From Methanobacteriota archaeon (lineage in GTDB: Archaea; Thermoplasmatota; Poseidoniia; Poseidoniales; Thalassarchaeaceae), in contig JAOMRN010000001.1 of NCBI GenBank assembly GCA_028355015.1, positions 193,229-257,228 of the forward strand: a stretch of DNA of 64,000 nt, written 5' to 3'. Each line of letters opens with the position of its first letter. Positions within the stretch are counted from its first letter, which is position 1. Below, piece by piece: positions 1-27,808 of this stretch. The translations under genes were made by a program, and so were the position numbers. The notes beneath the pieces were generated by a model. That model was given only the letters and a program-made list of their open reading frames with translations, was not told the DNA's origin and ran no database searches.

Positions 1-2052
1 TACATTGAAGAAAGCAGCTAGATGCCACCAATAATTTCCATTGATTGTTTTTGATACTGATGTATTAGGGGCACACAAATCAAATCCTTCGAATAATTTC
101 TCCATTTCATCAACTGTACTTATTGAAACTCCACTTTCACATACCTTCCCAAATATGTCTAGTCTTTCTTGGGGGTCATTTCCATACAAGCTAGGTGAAT
201 CAAAAGCAACTGATAGTCGGTTGAAATCTTGATCTTTGGATAGGAAATGGTATCTTTTGTTTGTTCTCTCTGCACTACCTTCTCCTGCAAACATTCTGAC
301 AGGTAACTCATCTTGTCTCTTGAATGGGAAAACACCTCCAGTGTAAGGGAATGAACCTGGCATGTTTTCTTTCCTAATCCATTGTAGAGTATCTCCCCAG
401 TCGCTATAATCTGGTAATGCAACTCTAGGCATATCTAATCCAGAAAGCGTAGTTTTGGTTGTTTTAACTGGGATATTTTTGTTTCTAACTGTGTAACTAG
501 TTGCCCCGGAACGATATTCCTCTGCTTTGGTTCTAAAATTGTCTAAACTTTCCCAAGCACCCTCAGGTATCTCTGAGCGAATAGTATCTGCTTCTTCTCT
601 GAGTCCTTCAGCCGCAGTTTTATTCTTCTTTAATTTCATTTGTTCTGATGCTGCTTCTAATTGTTGAACCAGCCTTATCTTTGAAGAAACCTCTTCAGTT
701 CTAGAATGATAATTTCTGATAGTGCTTGAAACTTCAGCCAAGTAACCCTGTCTTTCCGGAGGTATTGGTGAAGATCGATGTGGTAGACCGTCTGCTCCTA
801 ATCTTGGCTCTGCTGCTGAAAATGATTGAGAATATTTTTCATTTAGTAAATTGCAAAGTTTCTGCCATAATTGGTCAACTCCTGCATCTGCAAATTGACT
901 AGCAATGGTTGGAACGACTGGTAGGTCAGAATTCTCTGTATCCCACATCTCTCTATTTCTTTTGAACTGTTTACGGATTTCTGCAAGTGCATCTTCTGCT
1001 CCTGGCCTATCAAACTTATTCAGAACTACAATATCTGCTGAATCTAACATCTCTAACTTTTCTAATTGGCTAGGTGCTCCATATTCTCTTGTTGTTACAT
1101 ACAAAGAAATATCTGCAACTTCGGTAATTGCGTCATTACCTTGTCCAATTCCACTAGTTTCAACAACTACCAGATCAAATCCAACAGCCTTACAGGCTTC
1201 GATAGAGCGACCTATACAATCTGCAATTTCTCTACCACTATCTCTGCTAGCAAATGAGCGCATGAATAGATTTTCATCAGATAATGAATTCATCCTAATT
1301 CTATCTCCTAGTAAAGCTCCTCCTGTTCTTTTACGTGTAGGGTCTGTGGCTAGTAAGGCTATTTTAGTCCCTGGATTATCCCTTTGTATCCTTAACATCA
1401 ATTCATCAGTAAGACTTGATTTTCCAGCACCTCCAGTTCCAGTCAGACCGACGACTGGACATTTCGAACCATCAGTTGATCTAACTTTGTTCAGAACTTC
1501 ATTGAATATTTCTTCATCTGCATTTTCAGCTAATGTGAGTAATTTTGATACTGAACCGTGATTATCTGCAGAGATTGGTTTTTTCAGATTTTCAAACCTT
1601 ACTGGGTCAAGTAAGTTATTTTTTGAAGCCCTTTCTATAGCATCAGATACCATACCTGTAAGCCCTAATTCTCTACCGTCTTCAGGAGAGTATATTTTCG
1701 CTATATTAGAATCAAGTAAGTACTGTATTTCACTAGGAAGAATTGTTCCTCCTCCTCCGCCTACTAAACTAACATGGCCAAAATCTGCCTCGTCTAATAT
1801 CTGTTTAGTATGGGTAAACATTTCTACAGCTCCTCCCTGATATGAAGTAATTGCAACACAATGTGCATCTTCCTGAATAGCAGCTCTAGCTACCTCATCT
1901 GCTCCTCTGTCATGACCTAAGTGAATTACTTCACAACCCATTGACTGGAAAATACGTCTGAAGATGCCAATTGCAGCATCATGACCATCGAATATAGCCG
2001 CTGCTGTAATGATTCTCAGCGGAGTTCCACCTGTCTCGGCAGACTTTTGCAT
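1..2052 (-). CDS. icmF: Fused isobutyryl-CoA mutase (IcmF-type: B12-binding domain + MeaB-like G-protein + mutase catalytic domain). The C-terminus runs off the window start.
   Basis: Absent from the ORF track because it has no stop in the window. My own translation from the ATG (complement of 2050-2052) gives MQKSAETGGTPLRIITAAAIFDGHDAAIGIFRR..GCEVIHLGHDR (B12-binding). Next come VVGLTGTGGAGKSSL, VVETSGIGQ and LNKFD (P-loop GTPase G1/G3/G4). Then FPYTGGVFPFKR..RMFAGEG..RYHFL..LSVAFDSPSLYG (acyl-CoA mutase core). The frame stays open for all 684 codons down to nt 1. Confidence 0.85.
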   Translation of the reverse strand, partial: MQKSAETGGTPLRIITAAAIFDGHDAAIGIFRRIFQSMGCEVIHLGHDRGADEVARAAIQEDAHCVAITSYQGGAVEMFTHTKQILDEADFGHVSLVGGGGGTILPSEIQYLLDSNIAKIYSPEDGRELGLTGMVSDAIERASKNNLLDPVRFENLKKPISADNHGSVSKLLTLAENADEEIFNEVLNKVRSTDGSKCPVVGLTGTGGAGKSSLTDELMLRIQRDNPGTKIALLATDPTRKRTGGALLGDRIRMNSLSDENLFMRSFASRDSGREIADCIGRSIEACKAVGFDLVVVETSGIGQGNDAITEVADISLYVTTREYGAPSQLEKLEMLDSADIVVLNKFDRPGAEDALAEIRKQFKRNREMWDTENSDLPVVPTIASQFADAGVDQLWQKLCNLLNEKYSQSFSAAEPRLGADGLPHRSSPIPPERQGYLAEVSSTIRNYHSRTEEVSSKIRLVQQLEAASEQMKLKKNKTAAEGLREEADTIRSEIPEGAWESLDNFRTKAEEYRSGATSYTVRNKNIPVKTTKTTLSGLDMPRVALPDYSDWGDTLQWIRKENMPGSFPYTGGVFPFKRQDELPVRMFAGEGSAERTNKRYHFLSKDQDFNRLSVAFDSPSLYGNDPQERLDIFGKVCESGVSISTVDEMEKLFEGFDLCAPNTSVSKTINGNYWWHLAAFFNV

Positions 2053-2058
2053 GAACTC

Positions 2059-2075
2059 GGGACACTACGTGTCCC
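2059..2075. other. Perfect 7-bp inverted repeat GGGACAC-TAC-GTGTCCC, between the stop of the 187-aa ORF and the icmF start codon
   Basis: Read directly: gggacac tac gtgtccc, ending 6 nt from the icmF ATG on the minus strand. The function (operator, RNA hairpin or terminator of the upstream gene) is not established. Confidence 0.4.
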
Positions 2076-2093: not shown

Positions 2094-2657
2094 CTACTTT
2101 TGCAAATTTATACTAATCAAGGGTTCTTGTTCATTTCTTATTGGGGCATAATTGGAGTCCATTAATGCCTTGAAACCTTCAGTTTCTTCGTCTAAATATT
2201 CAGGTTTTATGTTCACGAATCTTTTCAACATCCCTACATATGATTCGTACGCTTGGATATTTTCAATCATTGATTTTTTAATTGATTCCATAAATTCTTT
2301 TTCTTCTGAAATATTGGCTCTCGTCTTAACTTCGAAAGCACCGTTATCGTTCATTCTGAAATCATGTGTAGAGTTACCTTGATTGATTTTATTCACTAAA
2401 TGTTGAACTATGTCTGATATCTCATTTCCTATCTTCCAAGAAGACCTAGATTGAACTTCATACATTCCGTCTTTTTCGAAGTTGAGTAAAATTTCCCAGA
2501 TATCCTTCGGACTTTCAAAACTGGCATTAATGCCTCTATTTTTTGAATCTAATTCTAGATCTTTCCATCCTAGTTCTCGTAGCCCATCAACGGTTCTTCG
2601 ATACGCTTCGATTGAGTCTAGAGCCCCATCAACTGACATTCTAATCGTATTCTCCAT
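2094..2657 (-). CDS. Hypothetical protein, 187 aa, acidic, no cysteine; transcribed divergently from the Ubl gene
   Basis: Long ORF with shorter antisense shadow ORFs. No motif I recognise. The lack of cysteine argues against an E2-like enzyme. Confidence 0.6.
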   Translation of the reverse strand: MENTIRMSVDGALDSIEAYRRTVDGLRELGWKDLELDSKNRGINASFESPKDIWEILLNFEKDGMYEVQSRSSWKIGNEISDIVQHLVNKINQGNSTHDFRMNDNGAFEVKTRANISEEKEFMESIKKSMIENIQAYESYVGMLKRFVNIKPEYLDEETEGFKALMDSNYAPIRNEQEPLISINLQK

Positions 2658-2763
2658 ATTTCATTCTGTTATCTAAGTATGTATCACTCCTCCAGAGAAA
2701 GGTAATTTTCCTGAACAGTTCATATACTCTTAGATTGAATATTACTTATGTCTGCGCCCGGAC

Positions 2764-2771
2764 ATAAAATA
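2764..2771 (+). promoter_or_regulatory. TATA-like element (ATAAAATA) about 27 nt upstream of the Ubl ATG
   Basis: Sequence ggacATAAAATAgggaag. The spacing would give a leaderless or very short-leader transcript, as is common in archaea. AT-rich background makes chance occurrence likely. Confidence 0.25.
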
Positions 2772-2797
2772 GGGAAGCAAGTAGAAGTCATAAATTA

Positions 2798-3028
2798 ATG
2801 GAGGAGCAGTCAATGGACGATATCAAGACAAATGTAGAAATCGCCGACAGAACTGGACATTCATCCCTTTCGCTAACGAAGAAAGAGACACTAGATCTCA
2901 TCGAAGGCAATCAGGGATCTTGGATTTATCAAAATAACCGAATGGTACAAGCAAGTGATATTGCTGATGCTAATTGGGCCGATGTTGGTACAATCCGAAT
3001 AATGCCAGGTCTGACGGGCGGACAATGA
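2798..3028 (+). CDS. Small ubiquitin-like / ThiS-MoaD-SAMP-like protein (76 aa) with C-terminal ...RIMPGLTGG-Q
   Basis: Ubiquitin-sized ORF. Its C-terminal pattern is hydrophobic strand + P + GG (G74 G75 at 3017-3022) followed by a single Gln and the stop. It lies directly upstream of an E1-JAB gene. An alternative ATG at 2813 is preceded by GGAGG. Confidence 0.55.
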   Translation: MEEQSMDDIKTNVEIADRTGHSSLSLTKKETLDLIEGNQGSWIYQNNRMVQASDIADANWADVGTIRIMPGLTGGQ

Positions 3029-3065
3029 AATATGCTAGTTAGTATAAGTCGGAATTTCAAAGAAG

Positions 3066-3087
3066 ATGGATGGTCTTTTCCATCCAT
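3066..3087 (+). other. Perfect 8-bp stem / 6-nt loop inverted repeat (ATGGATGG-TCTTTT-CCATCCAT) between the Ubl and E1-JAB genes
   Basis: Read directly from the sequence in the 108-nt intergenic spacer. The loop is U-rich. Confidence 0.5.
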
Positions 3088-3136
3088 TATCTCAGTGGTG
3101 TAGAACAATGACTGCCGAATTGGTGCGAGGCCAATA

Positions 3137-4366
3137 ATGTCGAAAGGAAGTAAAAATATGATTAAAAAAAGTGAATTGATAATTGGAATAATAGGGGCAG
3201 GAGGTATAGGTTCTAACTTAACCTCTGTTCTTTACCCTACTTTACAGCAAGGTGATTTAATTGAAAGATTGGGTGATATAAGGATACGTATATATGATTC
3301 AGACATAGTAGAAAAAAGTAATTTGCCACATCAAAATTTCACGATTTCAGATGTTGGAGCTTTGAAAGTTATCAGCTTATGTAATCGTCTCTGGTCGAAC
3401 ACTGATAAATCCTTTACAGATGGACCAAATATCATTTTAGATCCATCTCCATGGGACATCAGGGTAAAGAGCGATTTAGATGAATGTGACTTAGTAGTCG
3501 TAGCAGTTGATTCTCATCAAGCTCGTAAAGTGGTTCATGAAAACTGTGAATCTTGGTTGGACTTACGATGTTTAGGCGATGGGTATATTGCGATAGATAA
3601 CACTGTTGATACTTCAGTAGTCTCTCAATTAACTCCTAATCAGGAGTCGCAGTCTTGCCAATTTGAAGGGGCGATTGAATCTGGAAATATACAGTTCGGA
3701 TATATGTCTGCGGCTGCTCATGGTGCGCAATGGGTCATCCAGTCTTTACGTATTATTTCGGGTGAGGCCAACGCCCAAAGACCTCTTCCTCAGATTTCAA
3801 ATATTACTTTTGGTACTGCTGCCAGATTAGAACAAGGAATAACTGATTCAAATAATGAGGCCCTGGATTCTTCAATATCGCCACATATTCATTCTCAATT
3901 AGAGATAGATAAGATGGTAAAATCTGGAAATCATGATTCTATAGTAATTAAGGAAACATTAGCAGCTTTCGCTGAGAAAAAGGATTGGATATCTCTTTGG
4001 TCTTTGGCAAATGAATTAGGTCGAGAGGTCAGTATATTATATGATCAAGAATTAACTATGTGGGTCGATATCGGCACTTCTGGACGCGTAGAGTTATCTC
4101 CTCCAATAGGATCTTTGACTCCCTATAAACTCTGGATACACACACATCCGAGAGATGCTTATTGGTCATCTACCGATAAAGATACAATTGCTATATATTC
4201 GGAAATTTTAGATGAGGCTATTGTCCTTGGTCATGACCACTTCAAAAGAACAATAAAATCGGATGACCAACACTTTGATTTCCTTGAAGACTTTGGGCCA
4301 TTAAGTCGATGGACTGATGAAATAATATGTGAATATTCTATGTCCGAGGTTTCAGAATGCCAATAG
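3137..4366 (+). CDS. E1-like (ThiF/MoeB/UbaA-family adenylation domain) fused to a C-terminal JAMM/MPN+ (JAB) metalloprotease domain, 409 aa
   Basis: N-terminal half: IIGAGGIGSN (3194-3214), IRIYDSDIVEKSNLPHQ (the D-x-D..SNL-x-x-Q E1 signature, with His where Arg is usual), and VVAVDSHQARK (Mg/ATP Asp). C-terminal part: ELGREVSIL (conserved Glu strand) and WIHTHPRDAYWSSTDKD (HxH..S..D zinc site; the His codons start at 4139). Confidence 0.75.
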   Translation: MSKGSKNMIKKSELIIGIIGAGGIGSNLTSVLYPTLQQGDLIERLGDIRIRIYDSDIVEKSNLPHQNFTISDVGALKVISLCNRLWSNTDKSFTDGPNIILDPSPWDIRVKSDLDECDLVVVAVDSHQARKVVHENCESWLDLRCLGDGYIAIDNTVDTSVVSQLTPNQESQSCQFEGAIESGNIQFGYMSAAAHGAQWVIQSLRIISGEANAQRPLPQISNITFGTAARLEQGITDSNNEALDSSISPHIHSQLEIDKMVKSGNHDSIVIKETLAAFAEKKDWISLWSLANELGREVSILYDQELTMWVDIGTSGRVELSPPIGSLTPYKLWIHTHPRDAYWSSTDKDTIAIYSEILDEAIVLGHDHFKRTIKSDDQHFDFLEDFGPLSRWTDEIICEYSMSEVSECQ

Positions 4367-4590
4367 ATGATGAAGAGTCAGTCAAAAGGTTGAATCATTT
4401 ACTTGACTCTTCAGATAAAAAATCAATAGGTATAGATTCGATAATAAATACGATAATAGGGGAAGATGCGGACGATGAAATCAAACAACTGGTGAAGATA
4501 GCTTTAGATAATTTTGGTGCAGGAATTACAATGAAGGAACTTGCAGAAGGTGTGATGAATTTATACAAATGGAGGGAATCTCAATGTTGA
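4357..4590 (+). CDS. Small acidic, probably helical protein (77 aa), translationally coupled to E1-JAB
   Basis: Its ATG at 4357 overlaps the E1-JAB stop (4364-4366) by 10 nt. No recognisable motif. A single Cys is the last residue. Confidence 0.5.
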   Translation: MPIDDEESVKRLNHLLDSSDKKSIGIDSIINTIIGEDADDEIKQLVKIALDNFGAGITMKELAEGVMNLYKWRESQC

Positions 4591-4689
4591 TCAGTGAATA
4601 CTGTAAATCTCTTAGTCCAAAACGTTATTTTTATCGTAAAAGTAAAAATCTCGCTCTTTCTAATTTTGTAATAAATTGGGTAGACATTG

Positions 4690-5817
4690 ATGCATAAGAC
4701 CGCAAAGTTTAAGCGCCTTGGACATAACCTCGTAAGTCCGGTAAAGAGACCTACCTATTTGGGACTGGAGTGTTCTCCCTTTTCGGGCCTTGAGGCGATT
4801 AAGATGTGCGGTACAGATAGAGAAAATAGTAGAATAAATAGTAGAGAAAATTGTGAAGAATGTGGGAGTAAATCGATAGAAGAAGGTGTCTCACATTATC
4901 ATTGCGGTAATTGTGGGATTCAACTTGAATCATTAAAGTATGACACTTGCTATACCTTTCCTAGCGAGGTTAAAACTACAAGAAGAACGAATAGTTCTTC
5001 TGATTTAGGTAGCCAGATAGGTATTGATAAGAGTAGTTCCTATCAATCAAGGAGATTAGCTGCTCTTCAAGATAGACATTCTCGTAGAAATCTTAGCTAT
5101 ACAGATAAGATAGTTAAAGAGGCGGAGATTGCTAATTTATCTCCATCAATTTGCCTTAAGGTTGCGGATATAATTTCCAAAGCTAATAGCCGAATGGAAT
5201 TAACTCATAACAGAGATGGCATGATTGGTTTACAGTTAATATCTACTAGAGAAGATAGGTCTCAGTATAGGCGTAGAGTATATGCTATCGCTGCTTTAGA
5301 GCTCTTGAACCGTAATTTAGAATCGGAAGCAATTCAAGTATTAGAAATTGCATCAGAATGGGGCATCGACAAAAGTGATATTTCCCAGGCGATTAAACTA
5401 ATCAATAAAGTTTCAATATCTGTAAATGACTGCCTTTCAGTTAGCGATATGAATAATCAAACAAAGGACCCATCTATCATCAGAAACGATGAACTAAATC
5501 ATTTTCTTTTCAATTTCCAAGATCATCTTTGTGAGATTATCAATTTTGATTCTGCCAAAGGAATAATTGCCTCAGCCATTGAAATACTTTCTAAAGAAGG
5601 TGAGCCTATTGGCAATGCATCTTTCATTAACAATGAAGGGAAATATCGTAATATGTCTCCTCAAAAAGCTTCCATGGAAACAATAATCGATTCTATGATT
5701 CATCTTGGATATTCGGATGAGATAATTAAGTGCTTCTTCAATAAAAAACCTGTACCTGGTATGACTTGGGTTAACTCTAGGCTGGGCCGACGTCGTCGAG
5801 CTCTCGTTGAAGATTAG
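4690..5817 (+). CDS. Divergent transcription factor B (TFB/TFIIB)-like protein
   Basis: Zinc ribbon CEECGS..x13..CGNCG (4852-4917). Next come GSQIG and RRLAALQDRHSRRNLSYTDKIVKEAEIANLSPSICLKVADIISKA, which resemble the B-linker and the start of the first cyclin fold. Then RRRVYAIAALELLNR..VLEIASEWGIDKSDISQAIKLI. The track start at 4687 is TTG; ATG codons lie at 4690 and 4804 (the latter preceded by GAGG), so the true start is uncertain. Confidence 0.5.
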   Translation: MHKTAKFKRLGHNLVSPVKRPTYLGLECSPFSGLEAIKMCGTDRENSRINSRENCEECGSKSIEEGVSHYHCGNCGIQLESLKYDTCYTFPSEVKTTRRTNSSSDLGSQIGIDKSSSYQSRRLAALQDRHSRRNLSYTDKIVKEAEIANLSPSICLKVADIISKANSRMELTHNRDGMIGLQLISTREDRSQYRRRVYAIAALELLNRNLESEAIQVLEIASEWGIDKSDISQAIKLINKVSISVNDCLSVSDMNNQTKDPSIIRNDELNHFLFNFQDHLCEIINFDSAKGIIASAIEILSKEGEPIGNASFINNEGKYRNMSPQKASMETIIDSMIHLGYSDEIIKCFFNKKPVPGMTWVNSRLGRRRRALVED

Positions 5818-7441
5818 CAATTCTCATTGTAACCTCATTCATTTGTTCTTCTCTGATTTGAGCCCCTCCTGGATCTAAATCATCTGCGTCTCTATTGATA
5901 ATTTGTAATCTTTCTCTCAATGCGACCATTTGTTCCAAATAATTTCTATTAACGTCAAACCTTTCTCTCAAATTATCATTTTTATCTTCTCTACGTTTGT
6001 GTCTTTCAAATCTCGAAAGATAATTATCCAATGTGTTTATATTTTTTCTTGACGTTTTATCATTAAGAAGAGCCATCACAATACTCCCTATTGCATCTCC
6101 AATTACCAGTTTACGTAGACTTGGATCTTCTACAATACAGAGTTCTCTTACTAGCCCATTCCTTTCTCTTTCCATACGTTGCACATTCTCTCTTCTTAAT
6201 ATCAAACTATTGATTTGTCCTTCAATTATATCTTGTTCTGAAATAGGTTCCGCAGTTACTCTGAATCTGGATTGATGTGGACCACGCCCTGGTATAACAG
6301 CATACTTAACTCCTAATTCTCCTGTGACCTCTATTCTCTTCCCTCCTTTCAGGACTACCTTTCCATCTGACTGGTCTATTATTCCTCTAAGGAATTTAAT
6401 GCCATTAATATCTGGATTTGATATTATATTTCTTTCAATATCACAGAATAAGTAATATTGTAGGCATTCGAGTTTCATTCTATTCTCATGACCGGGCGTA
6501 CTAAGGCTCCAATTAACTAATGTCGACCATATATTCAGGTCTCTAGGAACTCTTATTTTTCTCCAGGTATCATTTCTTCGAACCCTTATCATAAGTCTTC
6601 CTTTATCTACTATTAATGACCTAGGTGCCTTATATCCTTTGATGAACATTCTTGTTCGGTCTGACAATATTTTCGACCAGTTTTCCAACCAATAATTCCT
6701 ATCTCCATTCTTCAGAAGTGAATGTTGTATGAAATTAAATACTCTTTTATTATCTATTAGATCTAGGTTGTTTATTGGATGTTTAATGAGATTCTTATCT
6801 CCAATCTTAGTAAAACCTCTCGCCCAGTGCCAAGCATTAGGCTTGTTATCTAAATATTTATTCTCAGTAGCTAAGGAAATTGAGTATAATAGAATTTTCC
6901 AACTGAATGTATTATTCTGATTTTTTTCTAGAACCTCTCTTAAGTCTCTGTATGGTAATCTAATAACTTCGCCATCTAAGAAAAAGTTACCTGAAATCCA
7001 AGATAAATGGCTCCCATCTGGTAAAACCCATCCTCTCTGCAGCCTTTTCATATCATTTATTTCTTCAATTTTATATTCTCTAATTATATCCCGAAATATC
7101 CTTTCATCTTCCTTTGAAAATATTGTCTCAGTATCTTTCCTTTCTCGGTTCCAGTCGAAGATTCTTGTTTGTAATTTCTCAACTCTACTATCTAATGCCC
7201 AATCTCTGTTTTCTAAATCCAAAAGATTGAATGATTTCCAAACCTTTCTGATATCCGAAGAAGGGTTCCCAATGCTTTCTCTTAGTTCATCTGCTTTTTT
7301 CTTATCTGGAATCCAATCTAAGCTATATCCTGTAATTTTAGGCACTAGAAGTGTGCATATCTCACACCATATCTGAGTTTTACTGCTTTCTCCACAAGCT
7401 ACGCATTCACTCATTTTGTTCACCATTTTTATTTTGTTCAA
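5777..7441 (-). CDS. Zinc-ribbon protein of unknown function, paralogue A (554 aa)
   Basis: N-terminal CVACG..x9..CEIC. Co-linear with the upstream 579-aa ORF through shared motifs PDGS, W(K/S)..ILL, LCI..DP and GDAIGSIVMALLNDKTSRKNINTLDNYL. C-terminal charged coiled-coil-like tail. The 3' end overlaps the TFB-like gene convergently by 41 nt. Confidence 0.7.
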   Translation of the reverse strand: MNKIKMVNKMSECVACGESSKTQIWCEICTLLVPKITGYSLDWIPDKKKADELRESIGNPSSDIRKVWKSFNLLDLENRDWALDSRVEKLQTRIFDWNRERKDTETIFSKEDERIFRDIIREYKIEEINDMKRLQRGWVLPDGSHLSWISGNFFLDGEVIRLPYRDLREVLEKNQNNTFSWKILLYSISLATENKYLDNKPNAWHWARGFTKIGDKNLIKHPINNLDLIDNKRVFNFIQHSLLKNGDRNYWLENWSKILSDRTRMFIKGYKAPRSLIVDKGRLMIRVRRNDTWRKIRVPRDLNIWSTLVNWSLSTPGHENRMKLECLQYYLFCDIERNIISNPDINGIKFLRGIIDQSDGKVVLKGGKRIEVTGELGVKYAVIPGRGPHQSRFRVTAEPISEQDIIEGQINSLILRRENVQRMERERNGLVRELCIVEDPSLRKLVIGDAIGSIVMALLNDKTSRKNINTLDNYLSRFERHKRREDKNDNLRERFDVNRNYLEQMVALRERLQIINRDADDLDPGGAQIREEQMNEVTMRIANLQRELDDVGPA

Positions 7442-9146
7442 TTAAATCACAGAAATATTCGAATCTTGCTTCCATATCCATTTCCTGCAATATTTCATCT
7501 ATCATCCCATTAGAACACTCTTGTTGCTGTTGTTCAAATTCATGTTGCTGTCTTTGTATTTCTAAGTCATTTTCATATTCTTCAATTGCCCTCTCCATAT
7601 TTTCATCCATTTCATGATGTCCATGCATTGATTCTAGTCCTGCATGATAATCATGTTCAACTACTGACCAATAATTATAATCTTTCAATATTGATGTATT
7701 CTCATCTATTGCATTCAAGAAGAAGTCTAATGTGAATATATAATTCCTAGATACTACATCGTTGTGTAATGCTAGTACGTAACCTACTGCTATATCGCCG
7801 AATGGTAACTCATGATCATCCATTAAAGGATCTATACACAGATCTAATCCTTTATGTTCTACGTCATCTATATCCGTGATACTTTGTATGGCGTCTACTT
7901 TCAATTTATTAGATTCATCAGAAGATATAACATAGTTTATACCAGAAATCCCTTGAACTTTTAATCCAGATTTTTCGCTGCTATAGTCAATTGGAATTAA
8001 TGATGATTTATCTCCTAATTTCTCAATTTCATTATGCAATAATCTTGCAGATCGTATCTGTCTAAGGCTAGGTTTCCATAGTTCTAATTCTTTGGTCCAG
8101 TTCATCAATAGTCCTTGTATGAATTCTGATCCCTGACTTCTATTTGGCAATAGTGCACATGCCATTAATTTCCTCCAATCTCTAGGGTCATTACCAAGTG
8201 AACATGTTGAAGGTTTATTTCTATCAATTACCAGTATCTTCAATCTATGATTTTGAGTTACTAATATAGGGGAACTTTTACATTGATATTCTTCAATATA
8301 ATTCTCCTTCCCATAATATATATCAGTCCATAATTCTCCGATTATTCCAAAATTTTCATCTTCCATTAGTGTAATATTTTCTCTTATTATTTCAGAAGGT
8401 GCTCTAGTGTCTCCTTCTTCTCTACACTTTCTTTCAATGAATTCTAAGAACGGCGGAACTCTTGAAGGATTCATATAATGACCTGGTGGGACTTTCATTG
8501 GATAGTCAATACCTCTCCATGAGTTTTCTTTGATCCACCGACCCCATTCTTCTTCGTTATTTCCAAAGTAATTTTTATCTGGCAGAGTGGTGGTAATACA
8601 ATCTAATAATAAAATAAAATCACTCCAATTTTTAATTGAATTTATCCTGAGTGAGTTAGATAGCCATTCTGCGATATCGAGAATAGGTATGTTACGAGCC
8701 AATCTGTATCTTCCTATGAATATTTTTTGATTCTTCTCGATAGATAGGGAGGTGCCGTCTGGAAAATAATAATTACCTGGGCGTAGAATATTGAATCTCC
8801 TCCAATAGTCTACTAGTTCATCCCATTCTGTAGACTCATAAGTCCAATGTGCTATTGAATTCTTACGTTTGGATTTAAGAATTGGGGGGATCGATACGGG
8901 TACCTCAACCTCTTGTACTAAATGTCGAATCCTTTGTTCAATCTTAAGTCCTCTACCTGGTTTCAGAAATATATTGATTTCTTTATTCCTTTTCTCTGAT
9001 AAGAATGGCCTGACATCTGTCCCCATGAATTCAGATGATAACATTAGACAGCCTGAACATAATTCTAATTCGTTAGGGATTTTTCCTGCACACCATTTGC
9101 AATACTTAGTCATCAAATGAATATTGTTCCGACAGATTATAAACAA
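7407..9146 (-). CDS. Zinc-ribbon protein of unknown function, paralogue B (579 aa)
   Basis: N-terminal CKWC..x11..CSGC. Shares FPDGTS, NWSDFILLL, LCIDP and GDIAVGYVLALHNDVVSRNYIFTLDFFL with paralogue A at near-identical positions. Very acidic, Gln-rich tail. Its stop overlaps the start region of paralogue A. An alternative start lies at 9113. Confidence 0.7.
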   Translation of the reverse strand: MFIICRNNIHLMTKYCKWCAGKIPNELELCSGCLMLSSEFMGTDVRPFLSEKRNKEINIFLKPGRGLKIEQRIRHLVQEVEVPVSIPPILKSKRKNSIAHWTYESTEWDELVDYWRRFNILRPGNYYFPDGTSLSIEKNQKIFIGRYRLARNIPILDIAEWLSNSLRINSIKNWSDFILLLDCITTTLPDKNYFGNNEEEWGRWIKENSWRGIDYPMKVPPGHYMNPSRVPPFLEFIERKCREEGDTRAPSEIIRENITLMEDENFGIIGELWTDIYYGKENYIEEYQCKSSPILVTQNHRLKILVIDRNKPSTCSLGNDPRDWRKLMACALLPNRSQGSEFIQGLLMNWTKELELWKPSLRQIRSARLLHNEIEKLGDKSSLIPIDYSSEKSGLKVQGISGINYVISSDESNKLKVDAIQSITDIDDVEHKGLDLCIDPLMDDHELPFGDIAVGYVLALHNDVVSRNYIFTLDFFLNAIDENTSILKDYNYWSVVEHDYHAGLESMHGHHEMDENMERAIEEYENDLEIQRQQHEFEQQQQECSNGMIDEILQEMDMEARFEYFCDLIEQNKNGEQNE

Positions 9147-9215
9147 TTCAAAAAACAGTTACATTTACATCTATCCGGGTAAGTATTGAATAGATATGAT
9201 TTATTCGGGAGAATT

Positions 9216-9677
9216 ATGACAACCGGAGTTATGTGTTGCCCTCGTGACGGTAGCCCTCTAATATCTCCAGATAATGCTTCAAAGTCTGTATTTTCACGAA
9301 ATGGAATTTCACATTGTCCTAATTGTTCAGGTCTTGCACTAAATCCCGAGGCAGCCTATTCTGAAATCTGTAGTCAAAAATTAGATGCAATTCATGATGG
9401 ATTCGAAGATGAGGGAATTCCTGTAGATATCTGCTGTCCATTCTGTCAGACAGGTATGAAAGTTCGAGACTTTGCATTCAGAAAAATAGATGGTACTCTT
9501 ACTGAATTAATTGAAATAGATGGCTGTCCGAATTGTGCATCCATTTGGCTTGATGCTGGCGAGCTTCAACGCTTATCACCTCCAAGCGGTAATACTGATG
9601 CGAACCCCTCTTCCGAAGCTGGAGCACTCGCTATAGTTCTTGATTTGTTATTACACCTTCCACTAGTTTTTGTATAA
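9216..9677 (+). CDS. Protein with two zinc-ribbon modules (the second resembles the zf-TFIIB / PF13453 type) and a hydrophobic C-terminal tail
   Basis: CCPRDG..x21..CPNCSG, and CCPFCQ..x26..IDGCPNCASIWLDAGELQRL (the C-x2-C..WLD.GEL motif). The tail is AGALAIVLDLLLHLPLVFV. The track start at 9186 is TTG; I prefer the ATG at 9216. Confidence 0.55.
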   Translation: MTTGVMCCPRDGSPLISPDNASKSVFSRNGISHCPNCSGLALNPEAAYSEICSQKLDAIHDGFEDEGIPVDICCPFCQTGMKVRDFAFRKIDGTLTELIEIDGCPNCASIWLDAGELQRLSPPSGNTDANPSSEAGALAIVLDLLLHLPLVFV

Positions 9678-9715
9678 TTTTAATCTAGGAATTCAGATAG
9701 TATAGGTCGTTATTC

Positions 9716-10540
9716 ATGGTTGAAGATGAGGGTGATTGGTGGGATAATAAAAACCCAGATGAAAAAACATCATCCTCTGTATCTCAGAATATTTTTACTG
9801 GCAACGTAGGCACCATATCTAGTCCATCTCCTGATATCTCGATTGCGCCAAATGATCCGAATAAATTTATTATGTCTCAATTCCTTATAGGTCTATTACT
9901 AATCCCTATTTTCGCTGGTTTCATCACATCTGTTGTAACTATGTCAGCCGAAAGAGCTGGTGACGACACCTATTATGGTGATAGTTATTATTTTTCTGGA
10001 TTTGATAATTCCTATACAACTATTATTTCAGATAAAGAATACTATGCATGGGATGCATATTTTAAAATCCCTGATATTGATGTTTCAGAAATACAAGAAA
10101 AAGATTATTGGTTACACACAGAATTCAGCGCTTCGGAATCTTGGGGATATTGCTACTTCGATATGGATATTTTAGATAATAATAACTTGATACAATCAGA
10201 TGATGGAAGTTACTGGTACTCTATGTCATGTTGGGGGGATATGGAAGGGTATGATGTGCTTTTAAGAATAGAAGAACAAACTTTCACTTATGCTATAGAT
10301 CAGGATGTACAGCCTAGATACGCGAGTGTTGATGGTGACCGCGATATTAGTGGTGTTGGAATATTGCTACAACTACTTCCAATTCTAATTGTTTTATTCT
10401 ACATTGGCACTATAGTTTGGAGTTTCATATCTAAGAGGAAATCTTTAGGTTTTGGTTTAATTGGGGGAATTATAATTGCTCCAATTTCTTTCTGCTTTTC
10501 TATGATTTTCCTTTCTTTCATCTATTGGAACAATTTTTAA
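9716..10540 (+). CDS. Hypothetical membrane protein (274 aa) with a Tyr/Asp/Trp-rich extracytoplasmic segment
   Basis: One hydrophobic segment lies near residue 60-80 and two or three at the C-terminus. No recognisable motif. Confidence 0.55.
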   Translation: MVEDEGDWWDNKNPDEKTSSSVSQNIFTGNVGTISSPSPDISIAPNDPNKFIMSQFLIGLLLIPIFAGFITSVVTMSAERAGDDTYYGDSYYFSGFDNSYTTIISDKEYYAWDAYFKIPDIDVSEIQEKDYWLHTEFSASESWGYCYFDMDILDNNNLIQSDDGSYWYSMSCWGDMEGYDVLLRIEEQTFTYAIDQDVQPRYASVDGDRDISGVGILLQLLPILIVLFYIGTIVWSFISKRKSLGFGLIGGIIIAPISFCFSMIFLSFIYWNNF

Positions 10541-24903: not shown

Positions 24904-26175
24904 ATGGCCGATGAGCAAGCAGACAGCTCATCAGTTTCTAGAGTCGGTAGAATTCTAGATTCTATTGATTCCTTTTCAAAGAATTTTGAATATTCAGACG
25001 AACCCCAAAATCTCATATTGGAAAATAATCGTACTATTGAAGATAAAATCCCTGAGCCAGTTAATGATGAAGCAGAACCGGTAATAATCAATCCTAAATC
25101 TTCAACTGTAGTTGATAATAATACTCTTGACGAAAAATCAGCGGAATTAATTGAACTTTTTGAAAGAATAGTAAGATTTTCAGGTTCTAAATTAAAGTCT
25201 TTAGTATTCAATATTCAATACTTAATTCCTGCTCTTGTTATCTTCCAATCTGCCTTTTGGCTTGCATATCTTTCAGAGGATTCGATATCAAATGGATTTA
25301 TTTCCACTCTAGTCGGTGAATTTGGGGATGTGGGGGTAGTTCTTCTTCGTTTCTTTTCAATATTAGGGGGATTGGTCGCTTATTCTTTGTTCTCAAGTTT
25401 CGATTCACAGCAATCATTTGATACCTTTTCATTACATTCAACTCTTGTCGATTTGATTTTTATCCTGCTAATATTCTCTTCAATTCTCTATCTAAGGAAG
25501 AAATTTGAGTCGCTATACCTTCTATTTTTCATCTATGTTCTCTCATTTATTAACCGGTTTTTAGAAGTAAATGATTCATCATATGATTGGTTAGTGATGT
25601 TTTTGGTTATTCTAATCTCTATGTTTTTATTATCAATAGTTTCAATTCCATTGACTAGAAATAAAATTATCAGAGACAGAAAAGAATCTAGAATCGACCT
25701 TTCAGTTCTGAAAAAGACATCTTTGCTTACAGAAGACTCATATCGTAAACCCAATGTTGGCATATCAGGTAGTTCCATGGACCAAGCACCAGTAACCAAG
25801 CCACGTAGGCCCTCAAGGCGATCAGAATACGAACTTTATGAATGGGTATTATTATTGGCCAATTTGATACTATGGCCAGCAGTATTTTTCATATCTATAA
25901 TATTAGGTTCAGGTGTTGAGATGTATGGTAACTCGTATAATATGGACGAAAATTACCTTATGTTAATGGGTCCACTATTCCTTACTCTGTTCTTTTTCGG
26001 AATATTATTTAAAATGGATAAAAACGCTAGAGATGGAAGTCTTTATGCTGCTGAAAAACAGTCTTATCTAGAAGAAATGGACAAGTATCTCAAAGCAAGA
26101 ACTGCATATCTCGAATTAGTCACTCTACAAGCTGAGACTAAGAAACAAGAGATAGTGAGTTCTTCAGAGGAATAA
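24904..26175 (+). CDS. Hypothetical polytopic membrane protein (423 aa) with an acidic N-terminal region
   Basis: Long ORF with multiple TM segments. No motif recognised. Confidence 0.6.
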   Translation: MADEQADSSSVSRVGRILDSIDSFSKNFEYSDEPQNLILENNRTIEDKIPEPVNDEAEPVIINPKSSTVVDNNTLDEKSAELIELFERIVRFSGSKLKSLVFNIQYLIPALVIFQSAFWLAYLSEDSISNGFISTLVGEFGDVGVVLLRFFSILGGLVAYSLFSSFDSQQSFDTFSLHSTLVDLIFILLIFSSILYLRKKFESLYLLFFIYVLSFINRFLEVNDSSYDWLVMFLVILISMFLLSIVSIPLTRNKIIRDRKESRIDLSVLKKTSLLTEDSYRKPNVGISGSSMDQAPVTKPRRPSRRSEYELYEWVLLLANLILWPAVFFISIILGSGVEMYGNSYNMDENYLMLMGPLFLTLFFFGILFKMDKNARDGSLYAAEKQSYLEEMDKYLKARTAYLELVTLQAETKKQEIVSSSEE

Positions 26176-26179
26176 TTAC

Positions 26180-27796: not shown

Positions 27797-27808
27797 GTTT
27801 AGGGAGGG

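What the first reader, a model, noticed from the sequence alone, without database searches (positions are those of the whole stretch)
2094..10540. AT-richer accessory island between icmF and a LysE exporter, made almost entirely of uncharacterised and zinc-ribbon proteins
Seen in sequence. Nine consecutive ORFs have no housekeeping identity: a 187-aa acidic protein, the Ubl, E1-JAB, a 77-aa protein, a TFB-like protein, two ~560-aa zinc-ribbon paralogues, a double zinc-ribbon protein and a membrane protein. They form four transcription units (minus, plus, minus, plus), with tight or overlapping junctions inside the units that have more than one gene. My spot counts of single 60-nt lines give roughly 27-37% G+C inside the island (lines 8581, 7321) against about 42% in fhs (line 37621).

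Inference. This is a horizontally acquired or fast-evolving island whose genes may work together, for example with the Ubl machinery modifying or being directed by the zinc-ribbon proteins and a dedicated TFB. I saw no integrase, transposase, flanking tRNA or obvious direct repeats.
Basis: partly seen in the sequence, partly recalled or inferred. Interest (0 to 1): 0.7.

Follow-up and report, generated by a model that had tools for sequence, protein, structure and literature searches.

The report
Archaeal ubiquitin-like tagging gene cassette
Seven of the nine flagged genes form a conserved, fast-evolving, optional cassette of marine Poseidoniales archaea that encodes a ubiquitin-like protein, its activating and trimming enzyme, and unknown partners, including one with the RNA-polymerase-docking zinc ribbon of transcription factor B. 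It looks like an undescribed protein-tagging system aimed at transcription.

Summary
The ORFs are real. The true variable unit is 2094-9146 (seven genes), not 2094-10540. The last two genes sit beside icmF in related genomes that lack the block.

AT-richness is small: 35.6-35.7% against 38.5% G+C. Codon third positions show no bias. The offset recurs in a 57% G+C relative, so composition gives no sign of recent foreign origin.

The seven genes keep their order and orientation in about 60 marine contigs, down to 47% E1 identity. Only about 12% of related species genomes carry them at this site. Non-synonymous rates are 3-8 times those of the flanks, and alleles are swapped by recombination.

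Supported identities:
- a pro-Ubl ending PGxxGG plus a variable tail;
- a ThiF-type E1 fused to a JAMM peptidase with all catalytic residues invariant;
- a protein with a TFIIB-type zinc ribbon but no detectable cyclin core.

The two roughly 560-aa zinc-ribbon paralogues share a core with an invariant cysteine and no known fold. An E2-like role is a lead only.

Sister cassettes in other Poseidoniales genomes carry a T7/mitochondrial-type single-subunit RNA polymerase.

Best reading: a new Ubl-conjugation cassette, probably acting on transcription in genetic conflict. No step has been shown biochemically.

The parts
2094..2657 (-). p187: acidic alpha/beta protein with no conserved cysteine, transcribed divergently from the Ubl operon. 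The real start is probably ATG 2639. Function unknown; it could be a regulator or accessory factor.
   Evidence: ORF. Homologues occur in 52 loci, always divergent from Ubl. Invariant residues are D33, W54-E55, F60, R71-S72, W74, F108-E109, N133 and Y137. No significant Pfam, NCBIfam, PADLOC, PHROGs or PDB-sequence match. dN/dS is 0.1-0.6.
2720..2804 (+). Conserved cis-regulatory leader of the Ubl operon. It holds a TATA-like box TCATATACTC (2720-2729) and a GC-rich inverted repeat GTCTG-CGCC-CGGAC (2750-2763) at the position expected for the transcription start. These are followed by the conserved AAATAGGGAAGC (2767-2778) and the Shine-Dalgarno sequence GGAGG (2800-2804).
   Evidence: The intergenic alignment is conserved although the proteins have diverged to 55-77% identity. 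The 12-mer TCTGCGCCCGGA occurs once per cassette, always upstream of Ubl, in 35 cassette-bearing loci. It forms a 5-bp helix whose closing pair covaries (GC 12, AU 2, UA 1). Whether it acts as a DNA operator or an RNA hairpin is not resolved.
2798..3028 (+). Pro-Ubl: a 76-aa ORF, probably 71 aa from ATG 2813. It ends ...PGLTGG-Q, a di-glycine followed by one residue to be removed.
   Evidence: P70, G74 and G75 are invariant. In 15 homologues the GG is followed by 0-8 variable residues. The best PDB-sequence match is a ubiquitin, aligned end to end with GG on GG, but E = 0.39. It is the slowest-evolving cassette gene, at 87-100% identity where E1-JAB is 69-99%. The beta-grasp fold is inferred, not shown.
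3137..4366 (+). E1-JAB fusion (409 aa). An N-terminal ThiF-type adenylating E1 (residues about 13-192, with a linker to about 290) is joined to a C-terminal JAMM/MPN+ metallopeptidase (about 290-409).
   Evidence: Pfam ThiF scores 4.7e-11, above its cut-off. The best NCBIfam hits are PRTRC_ThiF at 8e-14 and ThiF at 1.3e-13, both below their cut-offs. Invariant E1 residues are GxGGIG, D54/D56, N62-L63-x-H65-Q66, K77, D125, R130 and C174; C145 is nearly invariant. Invariant JAMM residues are E297, H335-x-H337, S344 and D347. A profile of the C-terminal domain retrieves only JAMM deubiquitinases from the PDB: AMSH-LP at 0.008 and Rpn11-like at 0.02, 16 of 16 hits. E1 and JAB are separate adjacent ORFs in L003, L167, L170, L171 and L175.
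4357..4590 (+). p77: a small helical protein whose start overlaps the end of E1-JAB by 10 nt. The C-terminal W-R-E-x-x-C motif is conserved. Function unknown.
   Evidence: Present in 82 loci, always directly after E1-JAB. D39, E41, A49, L69, W72 and R73 are invariant. No family or PDB match.
4687..5817 (+). TFB-ribbon protein (376-aa ORF, probably 337 aa from ATG 4804). An N-terminal TFIIB-type C4 zinc ribbon is followed by about 250 aa of helices unlike any known domain.
   Evidence: 11 of 21 family members hit Pfam PF08271 (TFIIB zinc-binding), best 6.9e-8. The family profile hits the Brf2 ribbon at 2.6e-4 and the P. furiosus TFB ribbon at 6.6e-4. Pfu TFB residues 1-55 hit three family members at 1.5e-7. 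No TFIIB cyclin-repeat match was found. The AlphaFold model is unusable (pLDDT 44).
5777..7441 (-). ZR554: N-terminal C4 zinc ribbon, a roughly 300-aa alpha/beta region, a conserved core (about 335-470) with invariant C435, D449 and D461, and a C-terminal coiled coil. Candidate Ubl acceptor or transfer (E2-like) protein.
   Evidence: 57 clusters, none with a Pfam domain. Only 155 representatives among 1.84 billion proteins. The AlphaFold model has pLDDT 77.8 and the order helix, four strands, Cys loop, helices. No PDB or viral fold match better than E = 0.6; three E2 enzymes appear among the weak hits. hhalign pairs C435 with the E2 catalytic Cys, but at probability 1%.
7407..9146 (-). ZR579: a distant paralogue of ZR554 with the same zinc ribbon and Cys core and an acidic Gln/Glu-rich tail. 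Probable start ATG 9113. It is the most mosaic gene of the cassette.
   Evidence: BLASTP against ZR554 gives 9e-5 on the core motif. Iterated profiles of the two families converge. The core alignment has G, C, D, L and D invariant across 30 diverse members. There is an allele swap in otherwise near-identical genomes: dS 0.52-0.54 against 0.02-0.09 in neighbouring cassette genes.

Best explanation
Window 2094-9146 is a Poseidoniales-specific, optional Ubl-conjugation cassette.

PROPOSED MECHANISM
1. The pro-Ubl (GG plus one residue) is trimmed by the JAMM domain of the E1-JAB fusion.
2. The exposed Gly-Gly is adenylated by the ThiF-type E1 domain. It is probably then held as a thioester on the invariant Cys174.
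3. The Ubl is transferred to protein targets. Transfer is either direct, as in archaeal sampylation, or through the invariant cysteine of the two large zinc-ribbon paralogues. These would then be novel E2-like or ligase-adaptor proteins.
4. The co-transcribed protein with a TFIIB-type zinc ribbon supplies an RNA-polymerase-docking module. The process acted on is therefore most likely transcription: RNA polymerase or initiation factors are tagged, blocked or sent to the proteasome.
5. The JAMM domain may also reverse conjugation.

BIOLOGICAL ROLE
- The cassette is dispensable, evolves fast, is exchanged as divergent alleles between close relatives, and sits in a variable hotspot.
- In sister versions it is coupled to an autonomous T7/mitochondrial-type RNA polymerase.
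- Its role is therefore most likely in genetic conflict: antiviral defence, or a domesticated mobile-element module for transcription takeover.

SHOWN
- Gene set, gene order and co-inheritance.
- E1 and JAMM domain identities, with intact catalytic residues.
- The GG-plus-tail C-terminus of the Ubl.
- The TFIIB-type ribbon.
- Presence/absence across genomes, evolutionary rates and recombination.

INFERRED
- Every biochemical step.
- The E2-like role of the zinc-ribbon proteins.
- The target.
- The conflict role.
For: MODULE
- The order p187< Ubl> E1-JAB> p77> TFB-ribbon> ZR< ZR< is kept in about 60 of 80 metagenome loci and in 7-8 genome loci, at 47-99% E1 identity.
- In L167 a short ZR-core protein lies between Ubl and E1, with overlapping junctions.

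ENZYMES
- ThiF is above the Pfam threshold.
- The adenylation and JAMM residues are all invariant in 26 diverse sequences.
- The JAMM profile hits only JAMM deubiquitinases in the PDB.

UBL
- PGxxGG is invariant and is followed by 0-8 variable residues. This is the pattern of a precursor that needs C-terminal trimming.

LINK TO TRANSCRIPTION
- The ribbon is of TFIIB type.
- Established knowledge: the TFB/TFIIB ribbon docks on RNA polymerase.
- A T7-type RNA polymerase lies within 2-6 kb of the cassette in 8 of 14 loci found through that polymerase, and in L065, L108-113, L122, L154, L159 and L162.

ACCESSORY, CONFLICT-LIKE DYNAMICS
- Present in about 12% of related species genomes at this site.
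- dN is 0.16-0.38 against 0.05 for icmF, with dN/dS 0.1-0.24, so the genes are under selection.
- There are allele swaps. ZR579 has dS 0.52 against 0.02-0.09 in neighbouring cassette genes. In L092 and L117 the cassette has dS 1.4-2.2 beside an icmF with dS 0.3.
- The icmF-LysE interval holds alternative cargo in other genomes.

REGULATION
- A cis element is conserved at the predicted start of the Ubl operon.
Against: - No biochemical or expression data exist.
- No recognised E2 or E3 is present. The E2-like reading of the zinc-ribbon core rests on topology, three non-significant Foldseek hits (E 1.6-5.8) and an hhalign match at 1% probability.
- The Ubl fold is not demonstrated (best PDB hit E = 0.39).
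- The TFB-ribbon protein lacks a detectable cyclin core, and its model failed. RNA-polymerase binding is inferred from the ribbon alone.
- No known defence gene lies in the window's cassette. PADLOC gives only weak E1 matches.
- The cassette in this window has no RNA polymerase gene.
- Co-divergence with the host would also fit a lineage-specific regulatory function.
Confidence: 0.55

Rival explanations
1. Domesticated or decaying remnant of a mobile element or virus. The cassette serves an element, expressing it through its own single-subunit RNA polymerase and subverting host transcription. The window holds a reduced copy that has lost the polymerase.
For: - Sister cassettes carry a T7/mitochondrial-type RNA polymerase (Pfam PF00940 at 5e-51, PHROG 414 at 1.7e-80).
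- Distribution is patchy and the site is a hotspot.
- Many neighbouring ORFs are unknown, and one neighbour in L175 has a NERD nuclease domain.
Against: - No Pfam or PHROGs hit to an integrase, replication, capsid or packaging protein among the cassette proteins and the neighbours that were scanned.
- No tRNA and no terminal repeats.
- No relative in IMG/VR viral contigs for either the E1-JAB or the polymerase.
- The chromosomal site is the same in lineages with 78% icmF identity, and the cassette co-diverges with the host.
- Host-like GC3 and host-tracking G+C.
- The genes are under purifying selection.
Confidence: 0.2
2. A lineage-specific regulatory sampylation system with no conflict role. 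The Ubl would tag a transcription factor or the TFB-ribbon protein itself to tune transcription or proteasomal turnover. This would resemble the SAMP-modified TBP2 of Haloferax.
For: - Archaeal precedent for Ubl-modified TBP2 degraded by proteasomes (PMC4895103, abstract).
- An E1 plus a JAMM peptidase with no recognised E2 matches the archaeal sampylation logic.
- Co-divergence with the host.
- A conserved operator-like element.
Against: - Absent from about 88% of related species at this locus.
- Divergent alleles occur in near-identical backgrounds.
- Very fast protein evolution, and a link to an autonomous RNA polymerase. Both are unusual for a plain regulatory circuit.
Confidence: 0.15
3. 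A sulfur-carrier system of the ThiS/MoaD or QbsE type. The JAMM domain would expose the GG, the E1 would adenylate it, and a Ubl thiocarboxylate would donate sulfur for a cofactor, tRNA thiolation or a metabolite.
For: - The E1's best curated matches are ThiF-type adenylyltransferases.
- JAMM trimming of a GG-plus-tail carrier is known from quinolobactin/PDTC and CysO systems (Iyer et al. 2006, PMC1779556, rows 4a-4d).
Against: - No rhodanese domain, sulfurtransferase or biosynthetic enzyme lies in or beside the cassette.
- According to Iyer et al., E1s fused to JAB never carry a rhodanese domain and belong to conjugation-type operons.
- All curated ThiF and MoeB scores are far below their cut-offs.
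- The partners are large, fast-evolving zinc-ribbon proteins and a TFB-ribbon protein, not enzymes.
Confidence: 0.07
4. A chance neighbourhood of unrelated orphan ORFs with no shared function.
For: Five of the seven proteins have no recognisable family.
Against: - Order and orientation are conserved across dozens of contigs at 25-50% protein identity.
- Coding regions overlap.
- dN/dS is well below 1.
- Residues in every family are invariant.
Confidence: 0.02

Closest known systems
Archaeal sampylation (SAMP1-3, the E1 UbaA, the JAMM peptidase HvJAMM1) of Haloferax volcanii
   Same: - Archaeal host.
- A small Ubl with a C-terminal Gly-Gly.
- A ThiF-type E1 and a JAMM peptidase.
- No canonical E2 or E3.
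- There is precedent for tagging a transcription factor, TBP2 (PMC4895103).
   Different: - Here E1 and JAMM are one polypeptide.
- The Ubl carries a variable tail that must be cut.
- The genes form a dedicated, optional, fast-evolving seven-gene cassette with five partners that sampylation lacks.
- The UbaA equivalog model scores 19 bits against a cut-off of 450.
Bacterial Bub (6E) operons, type I: the JAB-E1 fusion BubCD, the Ubl-E2 fusion BubAB, and the DUF6527 protease BubE (PMC11601596)
   Same: - Peptidase and E1 are in one protein.
- The peptidase matures the Ubl precursor.
- The operons lie in variable or mobile loci.
- A conflict role is suspected but unproven.
   Different: - The domain order is reversed (E1-JAB rather than JAB-E1).
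- A cysteine (C174) is invariant in the E1, whereas Bub uses Tyr/Ser oxyesters.
- No Ubl-E2 fusion and no DUF6527.
- Archaeal host.
- Extra TFB-ribbon and zinc-ribbon partners.
Iyer-Burroughs-Aravind class 6a (E2-E1-JAB triple fusion, now the '6A-MBL' anti-phage system) and type II CBASS Cap2/Cap3
   Same: - An E1 module followed by a C-terminal JAB, as in class 6a.
- Weak profile matches of the E1 part: NF058523 at 9e-4 and PADLOC E1-E2 at 2e-6.
   Different: - No N-terminal E2 domain, no metallo-beta-lactamase and no CD-NTase.
- A free-standing Ubl is present.
- Scores are far below the family cut-offs.
Bil systems (BilA Ubl, BilB JAB, BilC E2, BilD E1), which conjugate a Ubl to phage tail proteins
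   Same: - The enzymatic logic of Ubl plus E1 plus JAB, encoded in an optional operon.
- In sister cassettes the order is Ubl, ZR-core, E1, JAB, with the unknown Cys protein standing where an E2 would.
   Different: - No recognisable UBC-fold E2 by sequence or fold search.
- Archaeal host.
- A TFB ribbon and a link to an RNA polymerase.
- No PADLOC Bil match.
PRTRC (ParB-related, ThiF-related cassette) of bacterial plasmids and integrative conjugative elements
   Same: It gives the best curated match for the E1 domain (TIGR03736 at 8e-14). It is also a multi-gene cassette of unknown function built around a ThiF protein.
   Different: - The score is 51.6 bits against a cut-off of 144.75.
- No ParB and no PRTRC A-F proteins.
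- Chromosomal and archaeal.

Membership tests
ThiF/E1-like adenylating enzymes (Pfam PF00899) | Rossmann-type nucleotide-binding domain scoring above the Pfam gathering threshold, with the glycine-rich loop and the Mg/ATP-binding Asp | tested here: met
   42.7 bits against a cut-off of 28.1, E = 4.7e-11. GxGGIG, D54/D56, K77, D125 and R130 are invariant in 26 sequences.
ThiF/E1-like adenylating enzymes (conjugating subtype) | Catalytic cysteine in the crossover loop that forms the Ubl thioester | tested here: inconclusive
   C174 (the S-C-Q motif) is invariant and lies 49 residues after D125, a plausible position for the crossover loop. There is no structure or assay to place it.
JAMM/MPN+ metallopeptidases | The motif E...HxH-x(7)-S-xx-D with all metal ligands present | tested here: met
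   E297, H335, H337, S344 and D347 are invariant. The spacer is one residue shorter than canonical (HxH-x6-S-xx-D). The profile retrieves only JAMM deubiquitinases from the PDB, best E = 0.008. The Pfam JAB models do not reach threshold.
Ubiquitin-like beta-grasp modifiers | C-terminal Gly-Gly that is exposed, or exposable by cleavage | tested here: met
   PGxxGG is invariant, followed by 0-8 variable residues in 15 homologues; one homologue ends exactly at GG.
Ubiquitin-like beta-grasp modifiers | Beta-grasp fold | tested here: inconclusive
   The best PDB-sequence hit is a ubiquitin aligned end to end, at E = 0.39. One member hits ThiS at E = 0.26.
TFB/TFIIB transcription initiation factors | N-terminal C4 zinc ribbon of TFIIB type | tested here: met
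   PF08271 is hit by 11 of 21 members, best 6.9e-8. Brf2 scores 2.6e-4 and the Pfu TFB ribbon 6.6e-4. Pfu TFB residues 1-55 score 1.5e-7.
TFB/TFIIB transcription initiation factors | Two C-terminal cyclin-fold repeats (PF00382) that bind TBP and DNA | tested here: not met
   No PF00382 hit in any of the 21 members, and no PDB TFB/TFIIB core hit. tblastn with TFB stops at residue 55-57. The structure model is too poor to judge a cryptic cyclin fold. The protein is therefore not filed as a TFB.
E2 / UBC-fold conjugating enzymes (for the ZR554/ZR579 core) | UBC fold: helix, four-stranded sheet, catalytic Cys loop, then helices | tested here: inconclusive
   The AlphaFold model shows that order of elements around the invariant C435. 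Foldseek finds nothing better than E = 0.6; the E2s Pex4, Cdc34 and a Catovirus E2 appear at E 1.6-5.8. hhalign pairs the two cysteines at probability 1%. No Pfam UQ_con or Prok-E2 hit.
Archaeal sampylation E1 (UbaA equivalog NF047750) | Score above the curated equivalog cut-off | tested here: not met
   19.3 bits against a cut-off of 450.
Known anti-phage Ubl systems (CBASS type II, 6A-MBL, Bil; PADLOC and NCBIfam models) | Matches to the system's signature proteins (Cap2 E1-E2, Cap3, CD-NTase, MBL, BilA-D) | tested here: not met
   Only weak partial matches of the Rossmann region to E1-E2 models (best 2.1e-6). No other component matches.
Genomic island acquired by horizontal transfer | Atypical composition or codon usage, mobility genes, tRNA or repeat boundaries | tested here: not met
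   GC3 is normal and G+C is only 2.9 points lower. The G+C tracks the host in other lineages. No tRNA, repeats or integrase.
Accessory (flexible-genome) cassette | Presence/absence polymorphism at a fixed site among close relatives | tested here: met
   Present in L004, L006, L012, L031, L032, L035 and L065. Absent in 54 genomes, including L005, L007, L008, L010, L011, L040 and L069, whose icmF is 90-95% identical. The junctions are clean.

The most novel reading that the evidence does not exclude
The cassette is one form of a previously unrecognised archaeal conflict module. It would act by ubiquitin-like tagging of the host transcription machinery, reached through a TFB-ribbon decoy. The zinc-ribbon/Cys proteins would be a new class of E2-like transferase. 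In its fuller forms the module brings its own T7/mitochondrial-type single-subunit RNA polymerase, so that it stays expressed while host-polymerase-dependent (viral) transcription is shut down. As far as I know and could find, that polymerase would be the first of its kind reported as resident in archaeal chromosomes.
Probability: 0.2. Interest if true: 0.9.

Novelty: new variant of a known kind. Interest (0 to 1): 0.72.

Why it matters
Ubiquitin-like conjugation operons have lately emerged as bacterial immune systems and as models for the origin of eukaryotic ubiquitination. Archaeal examples outside housekeeping sampylation and the eukaryote-like systems of Caldiarchaeum and Asgard archaea are scarce.

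This cassette would add three things:
- an abundant-ocean-archaeon system with an E1-JAMM fusion;
- a possibly new Ubl-transfer protein family, with only 155 representatives among 1.84 billion proteins and no known fold;
- a direct physical link to transcription through a TFB ribbon.

Its sister versions place a T7/mitochondrial-type RNA polymerase in archaeal chromosomes. That bears on where this polymerase family lives in nature. The cassette also marks a recombination hotspot that shapes strain-level diversity in Poseidoniales.

Tried and rejected
1. Composition as evidence of foreign origin: rejected. GC3 is normal, other window regions are lower, and the offset recurs in a 57% G+C relative.
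2. A nine-gene island: rejected in favour of seven genes.
3. Mobile-element hallmarks: none found. No tRNA, no Rfam family, only chance-level repeats, and no viral-contig relatives.
4. Fold assignment of ZR554: Foldseek against the PDB and against viral structures gave nothing significant.
5. Sequence and profile assignment of the ZR core: Pfam scans of 30 members, a PDB profile search and hhalign against classical E2s were all non-significant.
I therefore did not spend the last fold search on it.
7. p187 and p77: profile searches of the PDB and Pfam gave nothing.
8. The GC-rich leader element as a repeated T7-type promoter: rejected as a repeated element. It occurs once per cassette, only upstream of Ubl.
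9. Literature: no paper in the searchable library links Poseidoniales with a Ubl system, and the polymerase search surfaced none among its listed top hits describing an archaeal single-subunit RNA polymerase. This library is incomplete.

Full report
ORGANISM AND ANATOMY

The window comes from a marine Poseidoniales (Marine Group II) archaeon. It is nearly identical to the single-cell genomes AG-313-L18 and AG-319-P11. The nearest syntenic relatives are labelled Thalassarchaeaceae.

The left neighbour is the fused isobutyryl-CoA mutase IcmF, on the minus strand with its start codon at 2050-2052. The right neighbours are a LysE exporter and an acyl-CoA synthetase.

COMPOSITION

The region 2094-10540 is 35.7% G+C against 38.5% for the rest of the window. 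Between 3% and 5% of equally long stretches are as low, and 25-28 kb is lower still. Third-codon-position G+C of the island genes (0.26-0.32) is not below the window mean of 0.265.

The same offset of 3-6 points is seen in relatives with very different base composition. The cassette is 50.7% against flanks of 57.1% in L031, and 34.5% against 38.1% in L006. The AT-richness is therefore real but small. It reflects amino-acid composition and shows long residence, not recent import.

TRUE EXTENT

I fetched 80 syntenic loci through IcmF and searched them with the window's proteins.

- The block from p187 to ZR579 is present at the same site in L004, L006, L012, L031, L032 and L035, and in variant form in L065.
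- It is absent from 54 genomes with enough upstream sequence to judge. These include L005, L007, L008, L010, L011, L040 and L069, whose IcmF is 90-95% identical.
- In those genomes the double zinc-ribbon gene and the membrane gene abut icmF directly.
- The junction alignment shows the conserved icmF leader and the conserved promoter region of the double-ribbon gene, separated by about 100 nt where the window holds the cassette. There are no target duplications.

The unit is therefore 2094-9146, seven genes. The wider icmF-LysE interval is itself a hotspot. In other genomes it is empty, or holds only the membrane gene, or holds an Lgt-like gene with a radical-SAM gene.

A CONSERVED MODULE

A profile of the E1-JAB protein recovered 390 stretches in marine metagenomes and none in IMG/VR viral contigs. 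Iterated profiles for each cassette protein give the map p187< Ubl> E1-JAB> p77> TFB-ribbon> ZR< ZR<. This map holds in essentially every contig long enough to show it, down to 47% E1 identity.

The E1-JAB family has 238 clusters at 90% identity. The ZR554 family has 57 clusters, and only 155 representatives at 50% identity among 1.84 billion proteins. Some contigs are binned as bacteria (L003, L165, L170, L172, L173). Given the TFIIB-type ribbon and the single-cell archaeal genomes, I take these as probable mis-binning, but I did not test that.

WHAT THE PROTEINS ARE

E1-JAB
- Pfam ThiF is above threshold.
- The adenylation residues are invariant. Cys174 is invariant and Cys145 nearly so.
- The JAMM set E297, H335xH337, S344 and D347 is invariant.
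- A profile of the C-terminal domain finds only JAMM deubiquitinases in the PDB: 16 of 16 hits, best E = 0.008.
- In several relatives E1 and JAB are separate adjacent ORFs.

Ubl
- It ends in an invariant PGxxGG followed by 0-8 variable residues. This is the mark of a precursor trimmed to expose Gly-Gly.
- The fold itself is only hinted at (ubiquitin at E = 0.39).

TFB-like protein
- The zinc ribbon is of TFIIB type.
- No cyclin core is detectable, and the structure model failed.
- I therefore call it a TFB-ribbon protein, not a TFB.

ZR554 and ZR579
- They are distant paralogues.
- Across 30 diverse relatives the shared core has an invariant Gly, Cys, Asp, Leu and Asp.
- A fair AlphaFold model (pLDDT 77.8) shows a helix, four strands, the Cys loop and then helices.
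- Fold searches find nothing significant, with three E2 enzymes among the weak hits.
- hhalign pairs the invariant Cys with the E2 catalytic Cys, but at 1% probability.
- In L167 a short ZR-core protein lies between Ubl and E1, where E2 genes lie in bacterial operons.
- The E2-like role is a lead, not a result.

p187 and p77
- They match nothing known.

REGULATION

The p187-Ubl intergenic region is more conserved than the proteins. It holds four elements:

- a TATA-like box at 2720-2729;
- a GC-rich inverted repeat at 2750-2763, about where transcription should start;
- a conserved AAATAGGGAAGC;
- a Shine-Dalgarno sequence ahead of a probable true start at 2813.

The repeat occurs once per cassette in 35 cassette-bearing loci, and its closing pair covaries.

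EVOLUTION

- Identity of the cassette tracks identity of IcmF (Spearman 0.87, n = 25; the points are not independent). The site is shared by lineages with 78% IcmF identity. The cassette is therefore old in this clade and has been lost often.
- All seven genes are under purifying selection (dN/dS 0.1-0.6) but evolve fast. Against L090, dN is 0.16-0.38, compared with 0.05 for IcmF and the synthetase. Only the Ubl is slow.
- Recombination is evident. ZR579 differs at dS 0.52-0.54 in genomes whose other cassette genes differ at 0.02-0.09. In L092 and L117 the cassette differs at dS 1.4-2.2 beside an icmF at 0.30-0.33. Divergent alleles thus circulate among close relatives.

AN UNEXPECTED RELATIVE

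Variant cassettes carry a 1,230-1,430-aa single-subunit RNA polymerase of the T7/mitochondrial type.

- Support: Pfam PF00940 at 5e-51, PHROG 414 at 1.7e-80, yeast mitochondrial polymerase at 3e-26 and T7 polymerase at 1e-19. The A, B and C motifs look intact by eye.
- It occurs in L065, where it sits next to icmF in place of p187, and in L108-113, L122, L154, L159 and L162.
- It occurs in 14 genome contigs, including two Poseidoniales single-cell genomes.
- In eight of those 14 loci, cassette genes lie within 2-6 kb.
- It has no relative in IMG/VR and is absent from this window.

INTERPRETATION

The best-supported reading is a Ubl-conjugation cassette built on an E1-JAMM fusion. The zinc-ribbon/Cys paralogues are candidate transfer or adaptor proteins. 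The TFB-ribbon protein points the system at RNA polymerase.

The optional, fast-evolving, recombining nature of the cassette and its link to an autonomous polymerase argue for a role in genetic conflict. None of the chemistry has been shown.

Rival readings are an element remnant, a plain regulatory sampylation system, and a sulfur carrier. Each is weighed in the Rival explanations section.

Compared with known systems (sampylation, Bub, 6A/CBASS, Bil, PRTRC), this one shares the Ubl, E1 and JAMM logic. It fails every curated membership threshold apart from the generic ThiF and JAMM domains. Its partner set is not described in the literature I could search.

Noticed in passing
L108:3104-6808 (+), L065:2858-6919 (-), L167:9737-13939, L175:7279-11568, L174:9977-14038; not present in the window: A T7/mitochondrial-type single-subunit RNA polymerase (PF00940) is encoded next to variant copies of the cassette in Poseidoniales genomes, including two single-cell genomes. 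Its best solved-structure matches are mitochondrial RNA polymerases (3e-26), ahead of T7 (1e-19). It has no relatives in IMG/VR.
   Followed up: partly
window 2059-2075 (icmF leader, 7 nt upstream of the icmF start codon at 2050-2052, minus strand): A perfect palindrome, GGGACACTACGTGTCCC, follows a TTAAAT-like box. It is conserved upstream of icmF in genomes with and without the cassette (L005, L006, L007, L008, L011). It is probably an operator or leader hairpin of icmF.
   Followed up: partly
L051, L063, L076, L079 (interval between icmF and LysE): The same interval holds alternative cargo in other genomes: an Lgt-like gene (PF01790) and a radical-SAM protein with an HMPTM zinc ribbon (PF04055, PF23545). 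In L009 and L047 the interval is empty. It is a variable hotspot.
   Followed up: partly
window 9716-10540 (mem274) and 7407-9146 (ZR579): Both genes are mosaic among otherwise near-identical genomes. mem274 is 73% identical with dS 0.6-0.7, and ZR579 is 85-87% identical with dS 0.52, while neighbouring cassette genes show dS 0.02-0.09. This indicates recombination breakpoints inside and beside the cassette.
   Followed up: partly
window 9186-9677 (dZR163): This double zinc-ribbon protein (PF13453 'Transcription factor zinc-finger', 1.4e-9) has a hydrophobic C-terminus. It is conserved next to icmF in most Thalassarchaeaceae whether or not the cassette is present. It is not part of the cassette, and its function is unknown.
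   Followed up: partly
L003, L165, L170, L172, L173: Contigs carrying the cassette or the polymerase are deposited in MAGs labelled Acidiferrobacter, Acidimicrobiaceae, Gammaproteobacteria and Chloroflexota. These are probably mis-binned archaeal contigs, but that was not tested.
   Followed up: no
L146, L149, L152, L153, L122, L126, L167: Some cassette variants encode two Ubl genes, in tandem or about 3.4 kb apart. Several have longer C-terminal tails after GG, such as TCKEEST and PLPEEEST.
   Followed up: no
L175:11853-13136 (-): A NERD nuclease-domain protein (PF08378, 2.5e-13) lies just beyond the RNA polymerase gene of a variant cassette. This is the only defence-associated domain seen near any copy.
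   Followed up: no
window 25000-28000: This is the lowest-G+C stretch of the window (32-34%), lower than the flagged island. I did not examine it.
   Followed up: no
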